Source: the human T2T-CHM13v2.0 reference genome, Homo sapiens | NCBI RefSeq assembly: GCF_009914755.1 | Contig: NC_060945.1 | DNA: 64,000 nt | Reading direction: 5' to 3' (one strand) | Part shown: positions 1 through 46,878 of the stretch, piece after piece | How the letters are laid out: each line of letters opens with the position of its first letter | Position numbering within the stretch: position 1 is the first letter of the stretch | Notes under the pieces: model-generated | The model's database searches: none | What the model was told of the DNA's origin: nothing | Seen by the model: the letters and a program-made list of their open reading frames with translations, nothing else | Program-made: the position numbers and the translations under genes

Positions 1-271
1 ATAGCTATCCTTGTTCTATCATTTTTGCTTTGTATATTTTTAAGCTCTTTTATTACTGTAAATTTAAAACAAATATATCTAATATGTACTAAAACTTTTT
101 GAGTCTGTATTGGTCTTGATCTTGAGTTACAGGTTTTGTTTTGGTTTGCACTCATAATTGTTTTGCCTTAAACTTATTTTACTTTTGACCATCTTTAAGC
201 ATTAGAAAGTTTTTTTTTAAAATAGTGTACATTTGGATTTTTTTTATTTAGTCCGATAATTTTTTTAATTT

Positions 272-42015: not shown

Positions 42016-42666
<651 letters not shown>

Positions 42667-42794
42667 AATGAAACAACCCAGATAATGGAAGCAAGTATTT
42701 GCAAACCATGCATCAGGCAAGGGGTTCATACACAAAATATATAAAGAACTCAAACTACTCAAAAGCAAACATACAAATGATCTTATTAAAGAAA

Positions 42795-44020
42795 TATACC
42801 CCAAACCTTTGTCCCCCACCATTATTTCCCTACCTTCTTTTCCTGGCGGCCTTTGGCCCCCTCCCTCTCACCACTCTTTTTCTTTCACCATCTGCCCCCA
42901 AACTACTTCATCATTTTTTGCCCACCCTCATTTCACAAAGCTGCCTCTACTCTCCTGCTCAACACCCTTTTCCCCATGCATCTACCCAAACCCTTTCCCC
43001 AGTTTCTTCCCACTGTCTTTTCCCCTTATCCCTGGCCAGCCTCTTTTTCCCCAACCCGCTCTCATCCATCTCTTTTGCTCTCTCAACCATCTCTTTTGCT
43101 CCTTTATCTAAGCAAAAACATTTTCCCCCGTCTTTTCCCAAAACCTTCTCTCCACTCCTGCTGCTCACTACCCTCTTTCCCCGCTTCATCCAACCAAAAA
43201 CTGTTTTCTTCATCGTCTTTCCCCCCGTTCCTCCTTGCCATTCTCTTTCCCTTCTCCATCTACCCAAAAACATTTCCCCCGTCTTTTCACAAAGCCTTCT
43301 CCCCACGCCTATTCACCTCTCTCTTTCCCCCTCCATCTACACACCAAAACTTTCCCCACCACCTTTTCAAAGTCTCCCCCCTTTACCACTAGTGCTGTTT
43401 TTTCTCCTACCCTGCTTGCCACCCTCTTTTTTCCCCTCCATCTACCCCAAACTATTTTTCTGTTGTTTTCCCAACCGCCATCCCTGCTACCTCTCGCCAC
43501 CCTCTTTCCTCCCTCCATCTATCGAAACACTTTTCACCCACCGTCTTTTCTTTCTTCACTGTCTTTCTTTTCTGCCACTGTCTTTTCACAAAACCTTGTC
43601 TTCCTCCTGCTGGCTACCCTCTTTTTCCTTCTCCCACTTGCTACCCTCTTTTGCTCAACCCAAAAACTTTTCTCCCCCACTGCATTTTCTCCACACTGTC
43701 TTTTCACAAAACCTTCTCTCCCTACTGCTCCACCCGTTTTCCCCCATCACCTCCCTCTCTTTCCTCCGCCCACTTGCCACCCTCTTTTCCCCCTCCATGT
43801 ACCCTTAAACTTTTTACCCACCGTCTTTCTGCAAAACCTTCCTTCCCTCCCACTCCCCACCCTGTTATTACACCTCCATCTACGCAAAAACCTTTTTCCC
43901 CACCATCTTTTCACCACCATCTTTTTTCAATTCCTTCTCTGGCTAAGCTATCCTTTTTTCCCTTTGGCCCTAACTACCCTCTTTGCTCCCCTCTATCTAT
44001 CCCAAAACTGTTTTCCTTCT
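42795..44020. repeat. Pyrimidine-rich degenerate tandem array (about 70-120 bp units)
   Basis: About 11 copies of CCATCTACCCAAAA-like anchors (e.g. 42888, 43256, 43438, 43876) with CCGTCTTTTCACAAAACCTTC and CTACCCTCTTTT sub-motifs; very few G on the + strand. Confidence 0.85.
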
Positions 44021-44192
44021 CCTACCTCTCCAGCCGCGATGCTATCTCTCCGTCACTGCCAACAACTGCAATGAGGCGAGCCGCGCTCCCGCGGCTCCAG
44101 CCTCCAGCATATAGCCACCGAATCCTGATTCCTAGTCCTCTACGTTGGGCAATGAGCAACTCGACATGAAGATACAGGAACCTGAAAAAAAG

Positions 44193-44483
44193 TGATCGCA
44201 CTTCAGCATCATTTATGTACTGCGGTAGTGCCCATGGAGGTTCCTGGACTGCATGTCTTGATTGGATGAGAAAAAAACCTCCAGGCTTACTCTGATTGGA
44301 CTTTATGATCATGTTCTGATTGGATGAGAGCAAGTCTTAACACAACCAATCACAGCATGAAAATAAAGTCCAATCAGAGTAGGCCTAGAGGTTTTTTTCT
44401 CATCCAATCAAGACATGCAGTCCAGGAACTGCATTTGCATAACCTCATATATAAAGGATGCTGAGGTGGCGTCAGGTCATTTC
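44193..44483. promoter_or_regulatory. Palindromic bidirectional promoter: 6 CCAAT boxes, octamer, TATA, Inr
   Basis: ATTGG at 44261, 44295, 44319 mirror CCAAT at 44404, 44370, 44346; ATTTGCAT 44433-44440; TATATAAA 44448-44455; Inr-like TCATTTC 44477-44483; minus-strand TACATAAA starting at 44219 and Inr-like TCACTTT with A at 44193. Confidence 0.8.
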
Positions 44484-44808
44484 AGACTCTTCTGTGTCGA
44501 GTGGAGGAGCAACTCTGTGCCCAGCTTAGAGGACTGGAAGAGGCCGCAATCTTCCGCCTGCTGGAGGGTGGAGGATGGATGGAGCCTGGAACCTGGGTCA
44601 CTACCTCGCTGCAGTTGGTGGTGGCGATAGAGCAGTAGGAGAGCATTCGGCAGCAGGAGCTTCTCCTGCTGGGCTGGAGGACTAGAAGGAAGAGGCACTG
44701 CCACATGCTGGAGGCTGGAACCTGTGCCACCATGGCTCGCCTCGCTGTGGTTGGTGGTGACATCGGAGACTGCAGCTCAGCCACAGTGGTAGAAATGTGA
44801 TGGTGTAG
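44479..44808 (+). ncRNA. Putative first exon (BAGE 5' leader-like) ending in a consensus donor AG/GTGAGT
   Basis: Predicted TSS about 30 nt after TATA; GAGCAACTCTGTGCCCAGCTTAGAGGAC resembles the recalled BAGE 5' UTR GAGCTGCTCTGTTCCCGGCTTAGAGGAC; donor GT at 44809. Confidence 0.55.
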
Positions 44809-44829
44809 GTGAGTTTTTCCGGGCCTGCC

Positions 44830-45400
44830 CTGTATGCCTCTGGGGTCAAGGGTTGGGTGTCCTATTGGGGTTCACTGCTAGAGGCTACCATGCCTGTGGC
44901 AGTGGTCTGGTTGGGGACACTCTCCGGGGTTGCATTGCTGGTGGTGGGGCAGGTTGCCTGGCTATCTGGGGCTATACTGCCTGTGGTGGCAGGGGTGGTG
45001 GGGGGAGGCAGATTGTGTACAATAGCTTGTATTGCTGGTGGCTGGGGAAGGATTAGGGGCGCTATTTTCTGCTGCACTGCCCGCAGCAGGGAGTGGGTTG
45101 GGTGGAGTTATCCAGGGCTACAATGCTGGCGGGGGGGTGGTTTAGGGGCGTTGTTGGGTGCTACACTGTGACTGGAGGGGTGCACCATTAGGAGCTGAAC
45201 TGCCTGTGGCTGGGTCAGATTGTGGGCACTATTGGGTGGTATGCTCCCTGAGGTGTGGGGGGAGTGTTTTTGTCAGGGGGTATTGGGGTTACATTGCCTG
45301 AAACTGTAGGGTGTGTTGGATGTGTTATCCAGGAGCTACACTGCTAGTGGCAGGGGGCAGATTAGGGGTGCCATGGGGACTACACTGCCAGTGGCATTGG
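44830..45400 (+). repeat. G-rich degenerate tandem array (about 45-50 bp units, GGGGCTACACTGCC..GTGG core)
   Basis: Recurring GCTACACTG/GCTATACTG/GTTACATTG anchors with G3-G7 runs. Confidence 0.8.
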
Positions 45401-45985
45401 CGAGCTGGTGAGGTGGCAGCAGCAGTGACAGCAGTGGCTTCCTTCTTCTCGTAGCTTCCAAGTAAGGTATCGTTTTCTTCTTCTCAGACTCCAGACTCTA
45501 GAAGGCGATTTTCTTCTGCTCGAGCTGGATTGCATGGTAGGGCCTCCACACCCACTGTGGTTTCCCAGCCTGCCCTCATGCTTTGTGTTGCGAAGATCAC
45601 GTGGGACTACCGGGCAGGGAGTAGTAGGCACCATGGGGGAAGTGGGAAACAGGGCACTGTTGGTGGAGGTGTCAGGAATGGGAACCAGCCCTTTGGTGGG
45701 GAGGGCTGGCTGGGTCTTAGTTTCTCCTACGCAGGCTCCCGGAGGAGGACAGCCTTGGTGGGCCCAGCAATTCCTGGCCAGGTGTACTTGGCCAAGGGCC
45801 TGTTTCAGTGAAGGCACTCACTCCCACCCCAGGCCCCAGTTCCTGGCCAGCTTTTGCCAGAAGGAGAGGTTGGACTTTGGAAGGTGGGTGTGAGTGCCTT
45901 CAATGAAACTGATCCCTGACACCCAGTCACCAGCCTAACGAGGTGAGGCTCTAATGGTTCCAATCCCTGAGTCCTGTTTTGGGCT

Positions 45986-46054
45986 TTTCTGGCTTTGCCT
46001 GCCCAGCTGCTCCAAGCCACTCTGAAGAAGGAGAAGGAGGAGTCGCCTGTGGTA
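45986..46054 (+). pseudogene. BAGE-like coding remnant without a start codon
   Basis: Translates [23 protein letters not shown] versus recalled BAGE1 [21 protein letters not shown]; in-frame TGA at 45968 and no ATG between it and the match. Confidence 0.75.
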
Positions 46055-46878
46055 TGGTTGAGCAGATGCCGTGGCTCTGCAGCTTGCCTCATGCAGTTGG
46101 TGGTGGAGATGGAGACCATAGCTAGAATGGAGCGGTAGGAGGGCACCCACGGGGGCTTGGTGGTAGGAGCCTGGTAGAGTGGGCTGGTACATTGAGGGTG
46201 ACTGGTTGTATTGGCATTGGTGCTAGTGGTGGTAGCAGTAGGAAGTCTGGGGGCCGGGAAGGGGGAGTAGGAGCACTGCAGGGCCCATCCCGTTCTGGGG
46301 TGGGGAGGAACCTGTGGGTGCTGTAACGAAGGTCTCGGTGGCAGTGGTGGTGGTACACCTAGGGCAAAGAGGAGTCCTCCCCCTTCTCCTGCAATCTCTG
46401 GAGTGTGCCCTCCTCCTGCCGGTGCCTGAGCTAGGCATGAGTGGCAGCATTATCTCATTCTTAACAAAATTTAGTGACTATTTGTGTATCCTTTTGCTTG
46501 TTTTTTGTTGTGATACTCTTGGAGTTACTCAAATTTTATGAATCGAGGAGGGGATAAAAAGTATTATATGATAGGCCTTCTAATTCCCACACCTGTTCTT
46601 TTTCCTTTCTTCCATTGTGTTTTCTTCTCATTTTCTTGTTCCTCTTCATTTTCTTTTGCTACTGCTTCTATTTCATGTTTCTATTCTTGTTTCTCCTCCT
46701 GTTTTTGTATTCTTATGCCAAGCAATGGCCTTAACCACCAAAACTGAGTTAAAAATAAAATACTTGTCACTGTTGTGTTTTTTAAATAACTGATCCCTTA
46801 CTATGTTTTAGAGATGAGGAAAAAAAATGAGTTGTATAATTAGTTACTTGAATAGTTATGCTTTCATAATTGTGTTAA

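What the first reader, a model, noticed from the sequence alone, without database searches (positions are those of the whole stretch)
44193..44483. Palindromic bidirectional promoter with histone H2B-like CCAAT-octamer-TATA grammar and one decayed arm
Seen: 84-bp arms (44240-44323 and 44346-44429, 78/84 identical, no indels, 22-bp spacer), each with three CCAAT boxes. The right arm continues ATTTGCATAACCTCATATATAAA to an Inr; the mirror position on the left reads ATGGGCAC and TACATAAA, so the octamer is lost and the TATA weakened. Known: CCAAT binds NF-Y, ATTTGCAT binds POU factors (OCT1/OCT4), and an octamer just upstream of TATA in a divergent CCAAT-rich promoter is the hallmark of replication-dependent H2A/H2B pairs. 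I also recall REP522-overlapping promoters being reported as bidirectional and activated in cancers (needs verification). Inference: a portable NF-Y/OCT promoter biased rightward, possibly S-phase-, germline- or demethylation-responsive.
Basis: partly seen in the sequence, partly recalled or inferred. Interest (0 to 1): 0.8.

Follow-up and report, generated by a model that had tools for sequence, protein, structure and literature searches.

The report
REP522 repeat core: palindromic CCAAT promoter
The palindrome is real and is the centre of one copy of REP522, a known human repeat family already reported to switch on in cancers; its middle carries six CCAAT boxes that stay almost unchanged across dozens of copies.

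Summary
Observation confirmed. There is an 87-nt inverted repeat (44240-44326 / 44343-44429, 92%, 16-nt spacer). Each arm has three CCAATCA boxes. ATTTGCAT-7 nt-TATATAAA-Inr follows on the right only.

It is not a unique locus. It is the centre of a ~3.7-kb repeat unit (42835-46515) with at least 46 places in this genome, mostly pericentromeric or acrocentric. By description and by its link to miR-5701 this is REP522. REP522 is published as largely palindromic, enriched among cancer-activated CAGE promoters and up at the 8-cell stage.

Comparing 31 non-redundant copies gave four results:
- The CCAAT hexad and its spacing are the conserved heart. Parsimony changes are about 1.1 per site there, against 3.6 in the rest of the aligned core and 4.4-4.5 in the outermost zones.
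- The octamer and TATA are not specially conserved.
- The CCAAT-octamer-TATA geometry matches real H2B promoters in this genome, but there is no histone gene and no detectable homology.

Promoter activity of this copy is inferred, not shown. The family is known; the motif dissection and the conservation gradient were not found in the searchable literature.

The parts
42835..46515 (.). Extent of the repeat unit (REP522-type), defined by collinear homology with a 69-73% identical copy on chr18.
   Evidence: collinear pieces 42835-43851, 43567-44534, 44630-45125 and 45539-46515. Alu-like repeats flank it at 42023-42679 (hub mask list; Rfam SRP/Alu hit).
42835..44030 (+). Left wing: C/T-rich (C 0.42-0.43, G 0.06), made of degenerate repeats of roughly 63-82 nt.
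   Evidence: families D1-D6; composition; TRF finds only four short arrays.
44129..44326 (-). Left half of the extended palindrome.
   Evidence: 77.5% identity to 44343-44539 over 200 columns, E 6e-38. Also.
44343..44539 (+). Right half of the extended palindrome.
44240..44326 (-). Left high-identity arm (87 nt) with three CCAAT boxes at 44261-65, 44295-99 and 44319-23, read on the minus strand.
44327..44342 (.). 16-nt asymmetric spacer. The palindrome centre is at 44334/44335.
44343..44429 (+). Right high-identity arm (87 nt) with three CCAAT boxes at 44346-50, 44370-74 and 44404-08.
44286..44428 (.). Slowly evolving block. It has 1.12 parsimony changes per site against 3.60 in the rest of 44133-44543, and 51 of 143 columns are invariant in 31 copies.
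44433..44440 (+). Exact octamer ATTTGCAT, right side.
   Evidence: Exact in 11 of 31 representative right arms.
44448..44455 (+). TATATAAA, 7 nt after the octamer.
   Evidence: TATAAA is kept in 18 of 31 right arms.
44477..44483 (+). Initiator-like TCATTTC. Its A at 44479 lies 31 nt after the first T of TATATAAA.
   Evidence: The YYANWYY pattern is kept in 23 of 31 right arms.
44228..44235 (-). Decayed left octamer; reads ATGGGCAC on the minus strand.
   Evidence: An exact left octamer survives in 5 of 31 representatives, all outside the window's clade.
44212..44219 (-). Weakened left TATA; reads TACATAAA on the minus strand. The sister copies of the subfamily read TATATAAA.
44189..44195 (-). 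Initiator-like TCACTTT on the minus strand, with its A at 44193. It is not homologous to the right initiator; the homologous left position reads TTTTTTC.
44303..44321 (+). Position homologous to mature miR-5701. The window copy differs at 3 of 19 bases.
44411..44418 (+). Three right-arm changes (44411, 44412, 44418) private to the window trio, each matching the copy's own left arm. This looks like a short arm-to-arm conversion tract.
44540..46515 (+). Right wing: G/T-rich (G 0.31-0.40). It is not a detectable inverted copy of the left wing.

Best explanation
The finding is the central palindrome of one copy of the REP522 repeat family. The repeat unit is about 3.7 kb (42835-46515).

The core is a mirror-symmetric, CpG-free module of six NF-Y-type CCAATCA boxes at fixed spacing (33/34-24-27-24-33/34 bp). 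In the ancestral element each side continued outward into octamer, TATA and initiator, giving a divergent RNA polymerase II promoter that fires into both wings.

In this copy the right-hand core promoter is intact, with a predicted start at 44479 on the plus strand. The left side has lost its octamer (a subfamily-level change), weakened its TATA (private to the three identical chr13/14/21 copies) and lost the homologous initiator.

Proposed mechanism, inferred: several NF-Y trimers open the core, a POU factor with TBP sets the right-hand start, and heterochromatin keeps the copy silent in most somatic cells. It would be released in tumours and around embryonic genome activation, as published for the family.

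Shown here: anatomy, family membership, ancestral symmetry and the conservation gradient. Inferred: factor binding, transcription, and directionality in this copy.
For: Anatomy.

Family size and spread:
- The core has 40 distinct places in this genome at 75-100% identity, on chr2, 5, 7, 9, 10, 13, 14, 15, 17, 18, 20, 21 and 22 (65 candidates, 40 scored).
- A right-wing query finds 40 places, 6 of them new (113 candidates, 40 scored).

Name:
- REP522 is described as about 1.8 kb, largely palindromic, unclassified and interspersed, and as strongly enriched among the most cancer-activated CAGE promoters (abstract passage in PMC4896275).
- hsa-miR-5701 is stated to overlap the Rep522 repeat (passage).
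- A 13-nt primer part for miR-5701 has 22 exact sites in the genome. Two of these, both on chr15, lie inside palindromes 81-82% identical to this core and at the homologous arm position.

Ancestral symmetry: five copies that fall outside the window's clade on a midpoint-rooted tree (L024, L025, L027, L032, L034) have ATTTGCAT on both arms.

Retention among 31 representatives:
- The six CCAAT boxes: 23-30 of 31.
- Octamer: right 11, left 5.
- TATAAA: right 18, left 15.

Constraint:
- Parsimony changes per site are 1.03-1.91 in the arms, against 3.1-3.5 in the octamer/TATA zones and 4.4-4.5 further out.
- Counting transversions only, the values are 0.29-0.86 against 1.4-2.1.
- CCAAT columns show 0.83 changes against 1.60 for other arm columns (one-sided Mann-Whitney p = 0.002).
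- Five wing-ascertained copies keep the right arm at 84-95% identity while their wings are 70-81% identical.

Family expression in print:
- Up at the 8-cell stage (passages).
- Enriched more than 2-fold in lncRNA exons (passage).
- H3K9me3-covered at the BAGE locus in human liver but active in Tc1 mouse liver (passage).
- Detected in embryonic stem cell and tumour transcriptomes (passages).
Against: - No expression, CAGE or ChIP data were available for this or any copy. RefSeq lists no gene or functional element here (hub table).
- The three 100% identical copies make unique read assignment impossible.
- The octamer and TATA are not more conserved than their surroundings (3.38 and 2.50 changes per site against a zone mean of 3.1-3.5), so the H2B-like part of the grammar is dispensable in most copies.
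- The conservation gradient could partly reflect the absence of CpG in the core, poorer alignment of the flanks, or ascertainment through a core query. The wing-ascertained check rests on only 5 copies.
- The measured unit (3.7 kb) is longer than the published 1.8 kb. No RepeatMasker or Dfam call could be made.
- The tree root is a midpoint root only.
Confidence: 0.7

Rival explanations
1. Neutral relic. The promoter grammar belonged to the ancestral element, but this acrocentric copy is permanently heterochromatic and does nothing. On this reading the low divergence of the core comes from its lack of CpG, from better alignability and from how the copies were found, not from selection.
For: - The consensus core 44185-44429 has 0 CpG, whereas each outer zone has 3.
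- Copies were found with a core query.
- There is no annotation here (hub table).
- The left side is visibly decaying.
- Many copies carry deletions in the core (L023 and L042; L092, L094 and L097).
Against: - Counting transversions only still gives a 3- to 6-fold lower rate in the arms.
- Wing-ascertained copies show the same contrast: arm 84-95% against wing 70-81% identity.
- CCAAT spacing is preserved.
- The family is transcribed in tumours and embryos according to the literature.
Confidence: 0.15
2. Structural DNA palindrome. The arms would matter because they extrude as a cruciform or hairpin, for recombination, replication, or the element's own spread. The motifs would be incidental.
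For: - Very stable fold-back: -88.8 kcal/mol, z = -19.
- The window copy shows a short arm-to-arm conversion tract.
- Copies sit in duplication-rich pericentromeric and acrocentric DNA.
Against: - The mirror symmetry is not maintained. Over 29 copies and 87 mirrored columns, 388 cells have one arm changed and only 16 have both arms changed to the same base; 4 of those 16 are in the window copy.
- Arm-to-arm identity is 79-92%, no better than copy-to-copy identity.
- Eight arm differences are fixed across large clades.
- The best conserved stretch is the right arm (1.03) rather than both arms equally (left 1.91).
Confidence: 0.07
3. Hairpin RNA gene. The palindrome would be a precursor of a miR-5701-type small RNA when transcribed through.
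For: - The chr15 sites that match the miR-5701 primer part exactly lie in homologous palindromes.
- The arm position 44303-44321 aligns to the mature sequence.
- The hairpin is very stable.
- Experimental use of miR-5701 is reported in a 2026 preprint (passages).
Against: - The window copy differs at 3 of 19 bases, including the seed region.
- No Rfam family reaches its threshold. The best hit on the palindrome is a plant family at 45 bits against a 100-bit cut-off, equally on both strands.
- There are almost no compensatory changes.
- An 87-nt perfect-type stem is far longer than a typical animal precursor (general knowledge, recalled).
- The T2T microRNA preprint lists miR-5701 among repeat-overlapping putative microRNAs.
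Confidence: 0.05
4. Captured histone promoter. The core would descend from an H2A/H2B intergenic region that was duplicated in inverted orientation.
For: The geometry matches real H2B promoters. CCAAT-to-octamer spacing is 29 bp here against 29-33 bp in 7 of 7 octamer-bearing pairs. The octamer-to-TATA gap is 7 nt here against 8-9 nt. Both use CCAATCAG-type boxes and ATTTGCATAA.
Against: - None of the 80 rows lies in the chr6 or chr1 histone clusters.
- No histone-fold match lies within the window. The only chr21 match is at 41.9 Mb.
- The shared letters are just the binding-site consensus sequences.
- The octamer is the least stable part of the family core.
Confidence: 0.03

Closest known systems
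REP522 (Repbase/RepeatMasker entry; listed as Satellite/telo or unclassified interspersed repeat)
   Same: - A largely palindromic centre.
- Multi-copy, in pericentromeric, acrocentric and subtelomeric DNA.
- Hosts miR-5701.
- The family is reported as cancer-activated CAGE promoters, 8-cell-induced and enriched in lncRNA exons.
   Different: - The unit measured here is 3.7 kb rather than 1.8 kb.
- Only about 410 bp is detectably palindromic in this copy.
- I could not run RepeatMasker, so the name rests on the description and the miR-5701 link.
Replication-dependent H2A/H2B divergent promoters (12 pairs read from chr6 and chr1 of this genome)
   Same: - A compact, CCAAT-rich bidirectional region about 300 bp long.
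- The octamer lies 29-33 bp after a CCAAT box and a few nucleotides before the TATA.
   Different: - No histone genes and no detectable homology.
- The ancestral REP522 had the octamer on both sides, whereas histone pairs have it on the H2B side only.
- REP522 has six regularly spaced boxes in mirror symmetry.
NF-Y-driven repeat promoters such as LTR12
   Same: Repeat-borne clusters of CCAAT boxes that are silent in somatic cells and inducible in tumours or by epigenetic drugs.
   Different: REP522 is not an LTR. It has no detectable retroviral parts, is palindromic, and appears to have spread with duplications.
hsa-mir-5701 loci on chr15
   Same: They are homologous palindromes of the same family, 81-82% identical to the core.
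   Different: The window copy does not encode the mature sequence; it has 3 mismatches.

Membership tests
REP522 repeat family | Largely palindromic interspersed repeat of about 1.8 kb (as described in PMC4896275). | tested here: inconclusive
   The central palindrome 44129-44539 is present. However, the wings are not detectable mirror images, and the unit measured against the chr18 copy is 3.7 kb.
REP522 repeat family | Many dispersed copies, mostly near centromeres, telomeres and acrocentric short arms. | tested here: met
   There are 40 places by the core query and 6 further places by the wing query. Candidate counts of 65 and 113 show these are lower bounds.
REP522 repeat family | Overlaps the annotated hsa-miR-5701 hairpins (stated in bioRxiv 10.1101/2021.12.09.471935). 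| tested here: met
   A primer part is exact at two chr15 sites inside homologous palindromes. It has 1-4 mismatches at the same arm position in most other copies.
REP522 repeat family | RepeatMasker/Dfam match to the REP522 consensus. | not testable with these tools
   No repeat library is available. NCBI's mask list in the hub table does not cover 44193-44483.
H2A/H2B replication-dependent histone promoter | Lies between divergent H2A and H2B genes. | tested here: not met
   The PF00125 search of the genome gives 129 matches, none in the window; the only chr21 match is at 41.9 Mb. ORFs next to the core are short and not histone-like.
H2A/H2B replication-dependent histone promoter | CCAAT-octamer-TATA order and spacing on the H2B side. 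| tested here: met
   The window has 29 bp and a 7-nt gap. Real pairs have 29-33 bp in the 7 of 12 pairs with an exact octamer, and an 8-9 nt gap in the four pairs read.
H2A/H2B replication-dependent histone promoter | Sequence homology to histone intergenic regions. | tested here: not met
   None of the 80 rows falls in the chr6 or chr1 histone clusters. This was BLAST-level sensitivity only.
NF-Y-dependent promoter | CCAAT pentamers with favourable flanks, multiple and regularly spaced. | tested here: met
   There are six CCAATCA boxes. In the 13 representatives among the listed patterns that keep all six boxes, the spacing is 33/34-24-27-24-33..36.
NF-Y-dependent promoter | NF-Y occupancy, and loss of activity when the CCAAT boxes are mutated. 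| not testable with these tools
   No ChIP or reporter data are available.
microRNA precursor (mir-5701) | Encodes the mature sequence in a hairpin arm. | tested here: not met
   There are 3 mismatches in 19 bases at 44303-44321. No Rfam family reaches its threshold.

The most novel reading that the evidence does not exclude
The REP522 core may be a selectively maintained NF-Y hexad: a roughly 140-bp module kept nearly unchanged in about 50 or more dispersed copies whose flanks have diverged by 25-30%. On this reading the genome would hold a distributed set of bidirectional promoters in pericentromeric and acrocentric DNA. They would have an ancestral H2B-type octamer-TATA on both sides and would fire together at embryonic genome activation and in tumours. 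In that case the chr13/14/21 trio, including this copy, would be a rightward-biased member, and the short-arm heterochromatin would contain a functional, constrained regulatory element rather than junk.
Probability: 0.25. Interest if true: 0.6.

Novelty: new member of a known kind. Interest (0 to 1): 0.4.

Why it matters
REP522 is already flagged as the repeat most enriched among cancer-activated promoters. In the literature I could search, no paper mentions it together with NF-Y or CCAAT. The primary 2016 paper could not be read.

The dissection here offers a concrete, testable cause for that behaviour. The core is a CpG-free array of six regularly spaced NF-Y boxes that evolves several-fold more slowly than its flanks. 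In some copies, including this one, it also carries an H2B-type octamer-TATA.

The analysis also shows that the annotated miR-5701 hairpins are simply REP522 centres. For this particular locus the result is modest: it is one of three identical acrocentric copies of a known repeat.

Tried and rejected
- Rfam scan of 42500-46500 at E <= 1: 11 sub-threshold rows. The rows on the palindrome are hairpin look-alikes of plant microRNA families on both strands, which I treat as chance.
- The primary REP522 cancer paper (Cancer Res 2016;76:216): not held by DOI or PubMed id. Its PMC id was not found in a citing paper's reference list. 'Bidirectional' is therefore unverified, and any motif analysis in that paper was not seen. 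I saw no supplements of any paper.
- PMC8524813 was listed for REP522, but its main text has no occurrence.
- First fuzzy-regex search for the miR-5701 primer parts returned nothing because of a script fault. It was redone by direct scanning.
- First attempt to locate histone start codons by longest ORF failed for several pairs. It was redone by N-terminal pattern.
- Search for a conserved ORF next to the core: only short, variable ORFs. I saw nothing I could tie to BAGE, and I did not pursue the BAGE link beyond the passage.
Only the chr18 copy was extended, so the boundaries rest on one comparison.
- L093, one of six wing-ascertained places: no core in the 1.2 kb fetched. It may lie outside that stretch.

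Full report
**1. The observation**

One search finds an inverted repeat with arms 44240-44326 and 44343-44429: 87 nt, 92% complementary, 16 nt between the arms.

All six CCAAT boxes are the heptamer CCAATCA. They make up 6 of the 11 copies in the 64-kb window, packed into 152 bp. The window total is not enriched (13.1 expected).

The right arm runs on into ATTTGCAT, then 7 nt, then TATATAAA (44433-44455). This is the only octamer-N(4-12)-TATAWA in the window (0.07 expected; 6 of 100 shuffles had at least one). TCATTTC follows, with its A at 44479, 31 nt after the first T of the TATA.

The mirror positions on the left read ATGGGCAC and TACATAAA.

The palindrome continues at lower identity to 44129-44326 / 44343-44539 (77.5% over 200 columns, E 6e-38). 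As single-stranded DNA it folds at -88.8 kcal/mol, against -24.0 +/- 3.4 for 200 shuffles, none of which folds as well.

**2. What it belongs to**

The 291-bp finding has 80 matching rows in the window's own genome, which is 40 places each hit on both strands. Identity is 75-100%, on chr2, 5, 7, 9, 10, 13, 14, 15, 17, 18, 20, 21 and 22 (65 candidates, 40 scored). Copies on chr14 and chr13 are 100% identical to the window over the 3.3 kb held.

Against a 69-73% identical chr18 copy, collinear homology runs from 42835 to 46515. Alu-like repeats lie just outside at 42023-42679 (hub mask list).

The left wing is C/T-rich with degenerate repeats of roughly 63-82 nt. The right wing is G/T-rich and is not a detectable mirror image of the left.

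A query from the right wing (45539-46515) finds 40 places. Of these, 34 coincide with the core places and 6 are new (113 candidates, 40 scored). The family therefore has at least 46 members.

**3. The name**

I could not run RepeatMasker. The name REP522 rests on two lines of evidence.

[quoted passage not shown] It says REP522 is strongly enriched among the most cancer-activated CAGE promoters (passage in PMC4896275).
- A preprint states that hsa-miR-5701 overlaps the Rep522 repeat (passage).

To test the second line, I used the 13-nt gene-specific end of a miR-5701 primer printed in another preprint. It has 22 exact sites in the genome. Only the two chr15 sites show similarity to this core, at 81-82%. 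In both, the primer sequence sits in the left arm between the second and the innermost CCAAT box.

At the same position the window reads a 19-mer with 3 mismatches (44303-44321). Most other copies have 1-4 mismatches.

The measured unit of 3.7 kb is longer than the published 1.8 kb. I leave that discrepancy open.

**4. Comparison of copies**

The 40 core places collapse to 31 representatives at 98.5% identity. I split each copy at the palindrome centre and aligned all 80 arms in one register.

Retention among the 31 representatives:

| Element | Left arm | Right arm |
|---|---|---|
| CCAAT boxes (inner, middle, outer) | 26, 27, 28 | 23, 30, 29 |
| Exact ATTTGCAT | 5 | 11 (a twelfth, L013, has it with an extra T) |
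| TATAAA | 15 | 18 |
| Initiator pattern | 7 | 23 |

On a FastTree tree with midpoint root, the five copies with the octamer on the left arm (L024, L025, L027, L032, L034) all lie outside the clade that holds the window. Three of them (L027, L032, L034) carry it on the right arm as well.

The simplest reading is that the ancestral element had octamer and TATA on both sides. In the window's subfamily (L001, L004-L013) the left octamer reads GTGGGCAT or a close variant. Its left TATA is TATATAAA, except in the window trio, which has TACATAAA.

The caveat is that the root is a midpoint root only.

**5. A conservation gradient**

Fitch parsimony on that tree gives these changes per site:

| Zone | All changes | Transversions only |
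|---|---|---|
| Spacer | 1.06 | 0.38 |
| Right arm | 1.03 | 0.29 |
| Left arm | 1.91 | 0.86 |
| Octamer/TATA zones | 3.1-3.5 | 1.4-1.5 |
| 50 bp further out | 4.4-4.5 | 1.7-2.1 |

- A 20-nt sliding mean is lowest at 44363-44382 (0.55) and rises on both sides.
- The block 44286-44428 has 1.12 changes per site against 3.60 for the rest of 44133-44543. In it, 51 of 143 columns are invariant.
- Inside the arms, CCAAT columns have 0.83 changes against 1.60 for the other columns (n = 30 and 144, one-sided Mann-Whitney p = 0.002).
- Octamer columns (3.38) and TATA columns (2.50) are no better conserved than their zones.
- Box spacing is 33/34-24-27-24-33..36 in the 13 representatives among the listed patterns that keep all six boxes. 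The summed spacing is kept where one box is mutated.

Three caveats apply:
- The consensus core has no CpG, while each outer zone has three.
- The flanks align less well.
- The copies were found with a core query.

As a partial control I fetched the expected core position of the six places found only through the wing. Five of the six have a core. These have 4-7 CCAAT boxes and no exact octamer, and one has a right TATAAA. Their right arms are 84-95% identical to the window, while their wings are 70-81% identical. The sixth, L093, showed no core in the 1.2 kb fetched.

**6. Is the hairpin itself maintained?**

No. I scored 29 copies over 87 mirrored columns; L023 and L042 were left out because their left arms are rearranged.

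- 2092 cells are ancestral on both arms.
- 388 have one arm changed.
- 16 have both arms changed to the same base.
- 2 have both arms changed differently.
- 25 are gaps.

Arm-to-arm identity is 79-92% across the family, with the window highest at 92%. Four of the 16 mirror-kept cells are in the window copy. Three of these (44411, 44412, 44418) are private right-arm changes toward its own left-arm state. I read this as a short arm-to-arm conversion.

**7. The histone comparison**

A Pfam histone search of the genome gave 129 matches, none in the window. From them I took 12 divergent H2A/H2B pairs and read their intergenic regions.

- Start-codon-to-start-codon distance is 303-340 bp.
- Each region has 2-7 CCAAT boxes, in both orientations.
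- An exact ATTTGCAT in the H2B orientation is present in 7 of 12 pairs.
- A CCAAT box lies 29-33 bp upstream of the octamer in all 7.
- The gap to the TATA is 8-9 nt in the four pairs where I read it (L058, L060, L061, L065).

The window has 29 bp and 7 nt. The grammar resemblance is therefore real and was tested against this genome's own histone promoters.

Membership fails, however. There are no histone genes and no BLAST-level similarity to the histone clusters. The ancestral REP522 also had the octamer on both sides, unlike histone pairs.

**8. How it most likely works**

Recalled background, not from any call:
- NF-Y binds CCAAT and favours the CCAATCA/G context.
- POU factors such as OCT1 and OCT4 bind ATTTGCAT.
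- OCT1 with a co-activator couples H2B transcription to S phase.
- Two NF-Y trimers need roughly 24 bp or more between boxes.

With that background, I read the core as an array that can hold several NF-Y trimers. It is flanked by outward-facing TATA/initiator promoters. In this copy only the right one is complete.

Published family behaviour fits a normally silenced promoter that is released in permissive chromatin:
- Cancer-activated CAGE promoters.
- Expression in embryonic stem cells and lung tumour epithelium.
- A peak at the 8-cell stage without matching demethylation.
- More than 2-fold enrichment in lncRNA exons.
- H3K9me3 in human liver, but activity when the chromosome sits in mouse liver.

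None of this was measured for this copy, and RefSeq annotates nothing here. The core has no CpG, so any methylation control must act through the flanks. One example is the CpG-richer patch at 44030-44240, with observed/expected CpG of 0.86.

**9. Novelty**

REP522 and its activation in cancer are known, and this locus is one more copy. In the searchable library, 14 papers mention REP522. None of them also mentions NF-Y or CCAAT. The primary 2016 paper and the 2017 follow-up cited were not readable, so they may contain motif analysis I did not see.

I did not find the following in print:
- The six-box array with fixed spacing.
- The ancestral two-sided octamer-TATA.
- The several-fold slower evolution of the core.
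- The identity of the miR-5701 hairpins with REP522 centres at base level.

**10. Verdict**

It is a new member of a known kind. Interest is 0.4.

Noticed in passing
L080 (chr15:18856824) and L081 (chr15:19727913); window 44303-44321: The sites that match the miR-5701 primer part exactly are the left arms of REP522-type palindromes. The annotated microRNA hairpin therefore appears to be simply the centre of this repeat. The window copy has 3 mismatches.
   Followed up: partly
L002 (chr14:7267253-7270543) and L003 (chr13:12020336-12023626), against window 42693-45983: The 3.3 kb around the core is 100% identical on three acrocentric short arms (chr21, chr14, chr13). The 977-bp right-wing query is also 100% identical. 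This indicates very recent exchange or duplication between these arms.
   Followed up: no
window 44411-44418: There are three private right-arm changes, all matching the copy's own left-arm state, within 8 bp. This looks like a short arm-to-arm conversion or template switch.
   Followed up: partly
Octamer position in right arms of L014-L022 (chr2/14/22/13) and L035-L043 (chr5/13/15/18/21): Two groups that are not sisters on the tree share ATGTGCGT/ATGCGCGT-type variants in place of ATTTGCAT. The window's clade, nested between them, has the exact octamer. This needs either parallel changes, a reversal, conversion between copies or a wrong tree. It is unexplained.
   Followed up: no
window 44357-44392: About 36 nt around the middle right CCAAT box (from GCATGAAAATAAAG through TAGGCCTAGAGG) is almost invariant in all copies. 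That is well beyond the pentamer, so something other than NF-Y, or in addition to it, may read this stretch.
   Followed up: no
window 44733-44798 and homologous places in L008, L019, L036, L039: A short ORF behind a Kozak-like ATG recurs downstream of the right promoter in several copies; it ends in a motif like ...ARLAVVGGD.GDCSSATVVEM. A mirror-image relative lies on the left side of L017 and L019. Its length and sequence vary, and it was not searched further.
   Followed up: no
window 45793-45828 / 45883-45918: A second, smaller inverted repeat (36 nt, 83%) lies in the right wing. There is only a sub-threshold Rfam hairpin hit there.
   Followed up: no
L023 (chr17:22756520), L042 (chr21:11860252), L092, L094, L097: Several copies have lost or replaced part of the left arm or the outer right side while keeping the right-arm CCAAT block.
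   Followed up: partly
window 42023-42679: Two Alu-like repeats (Rfam SRP, mir-1268 and mir-3135 sub-threshold hits) lie directly left of the repeat unit. An Alu also lies left of the chr18 copy.
   Followed up: no
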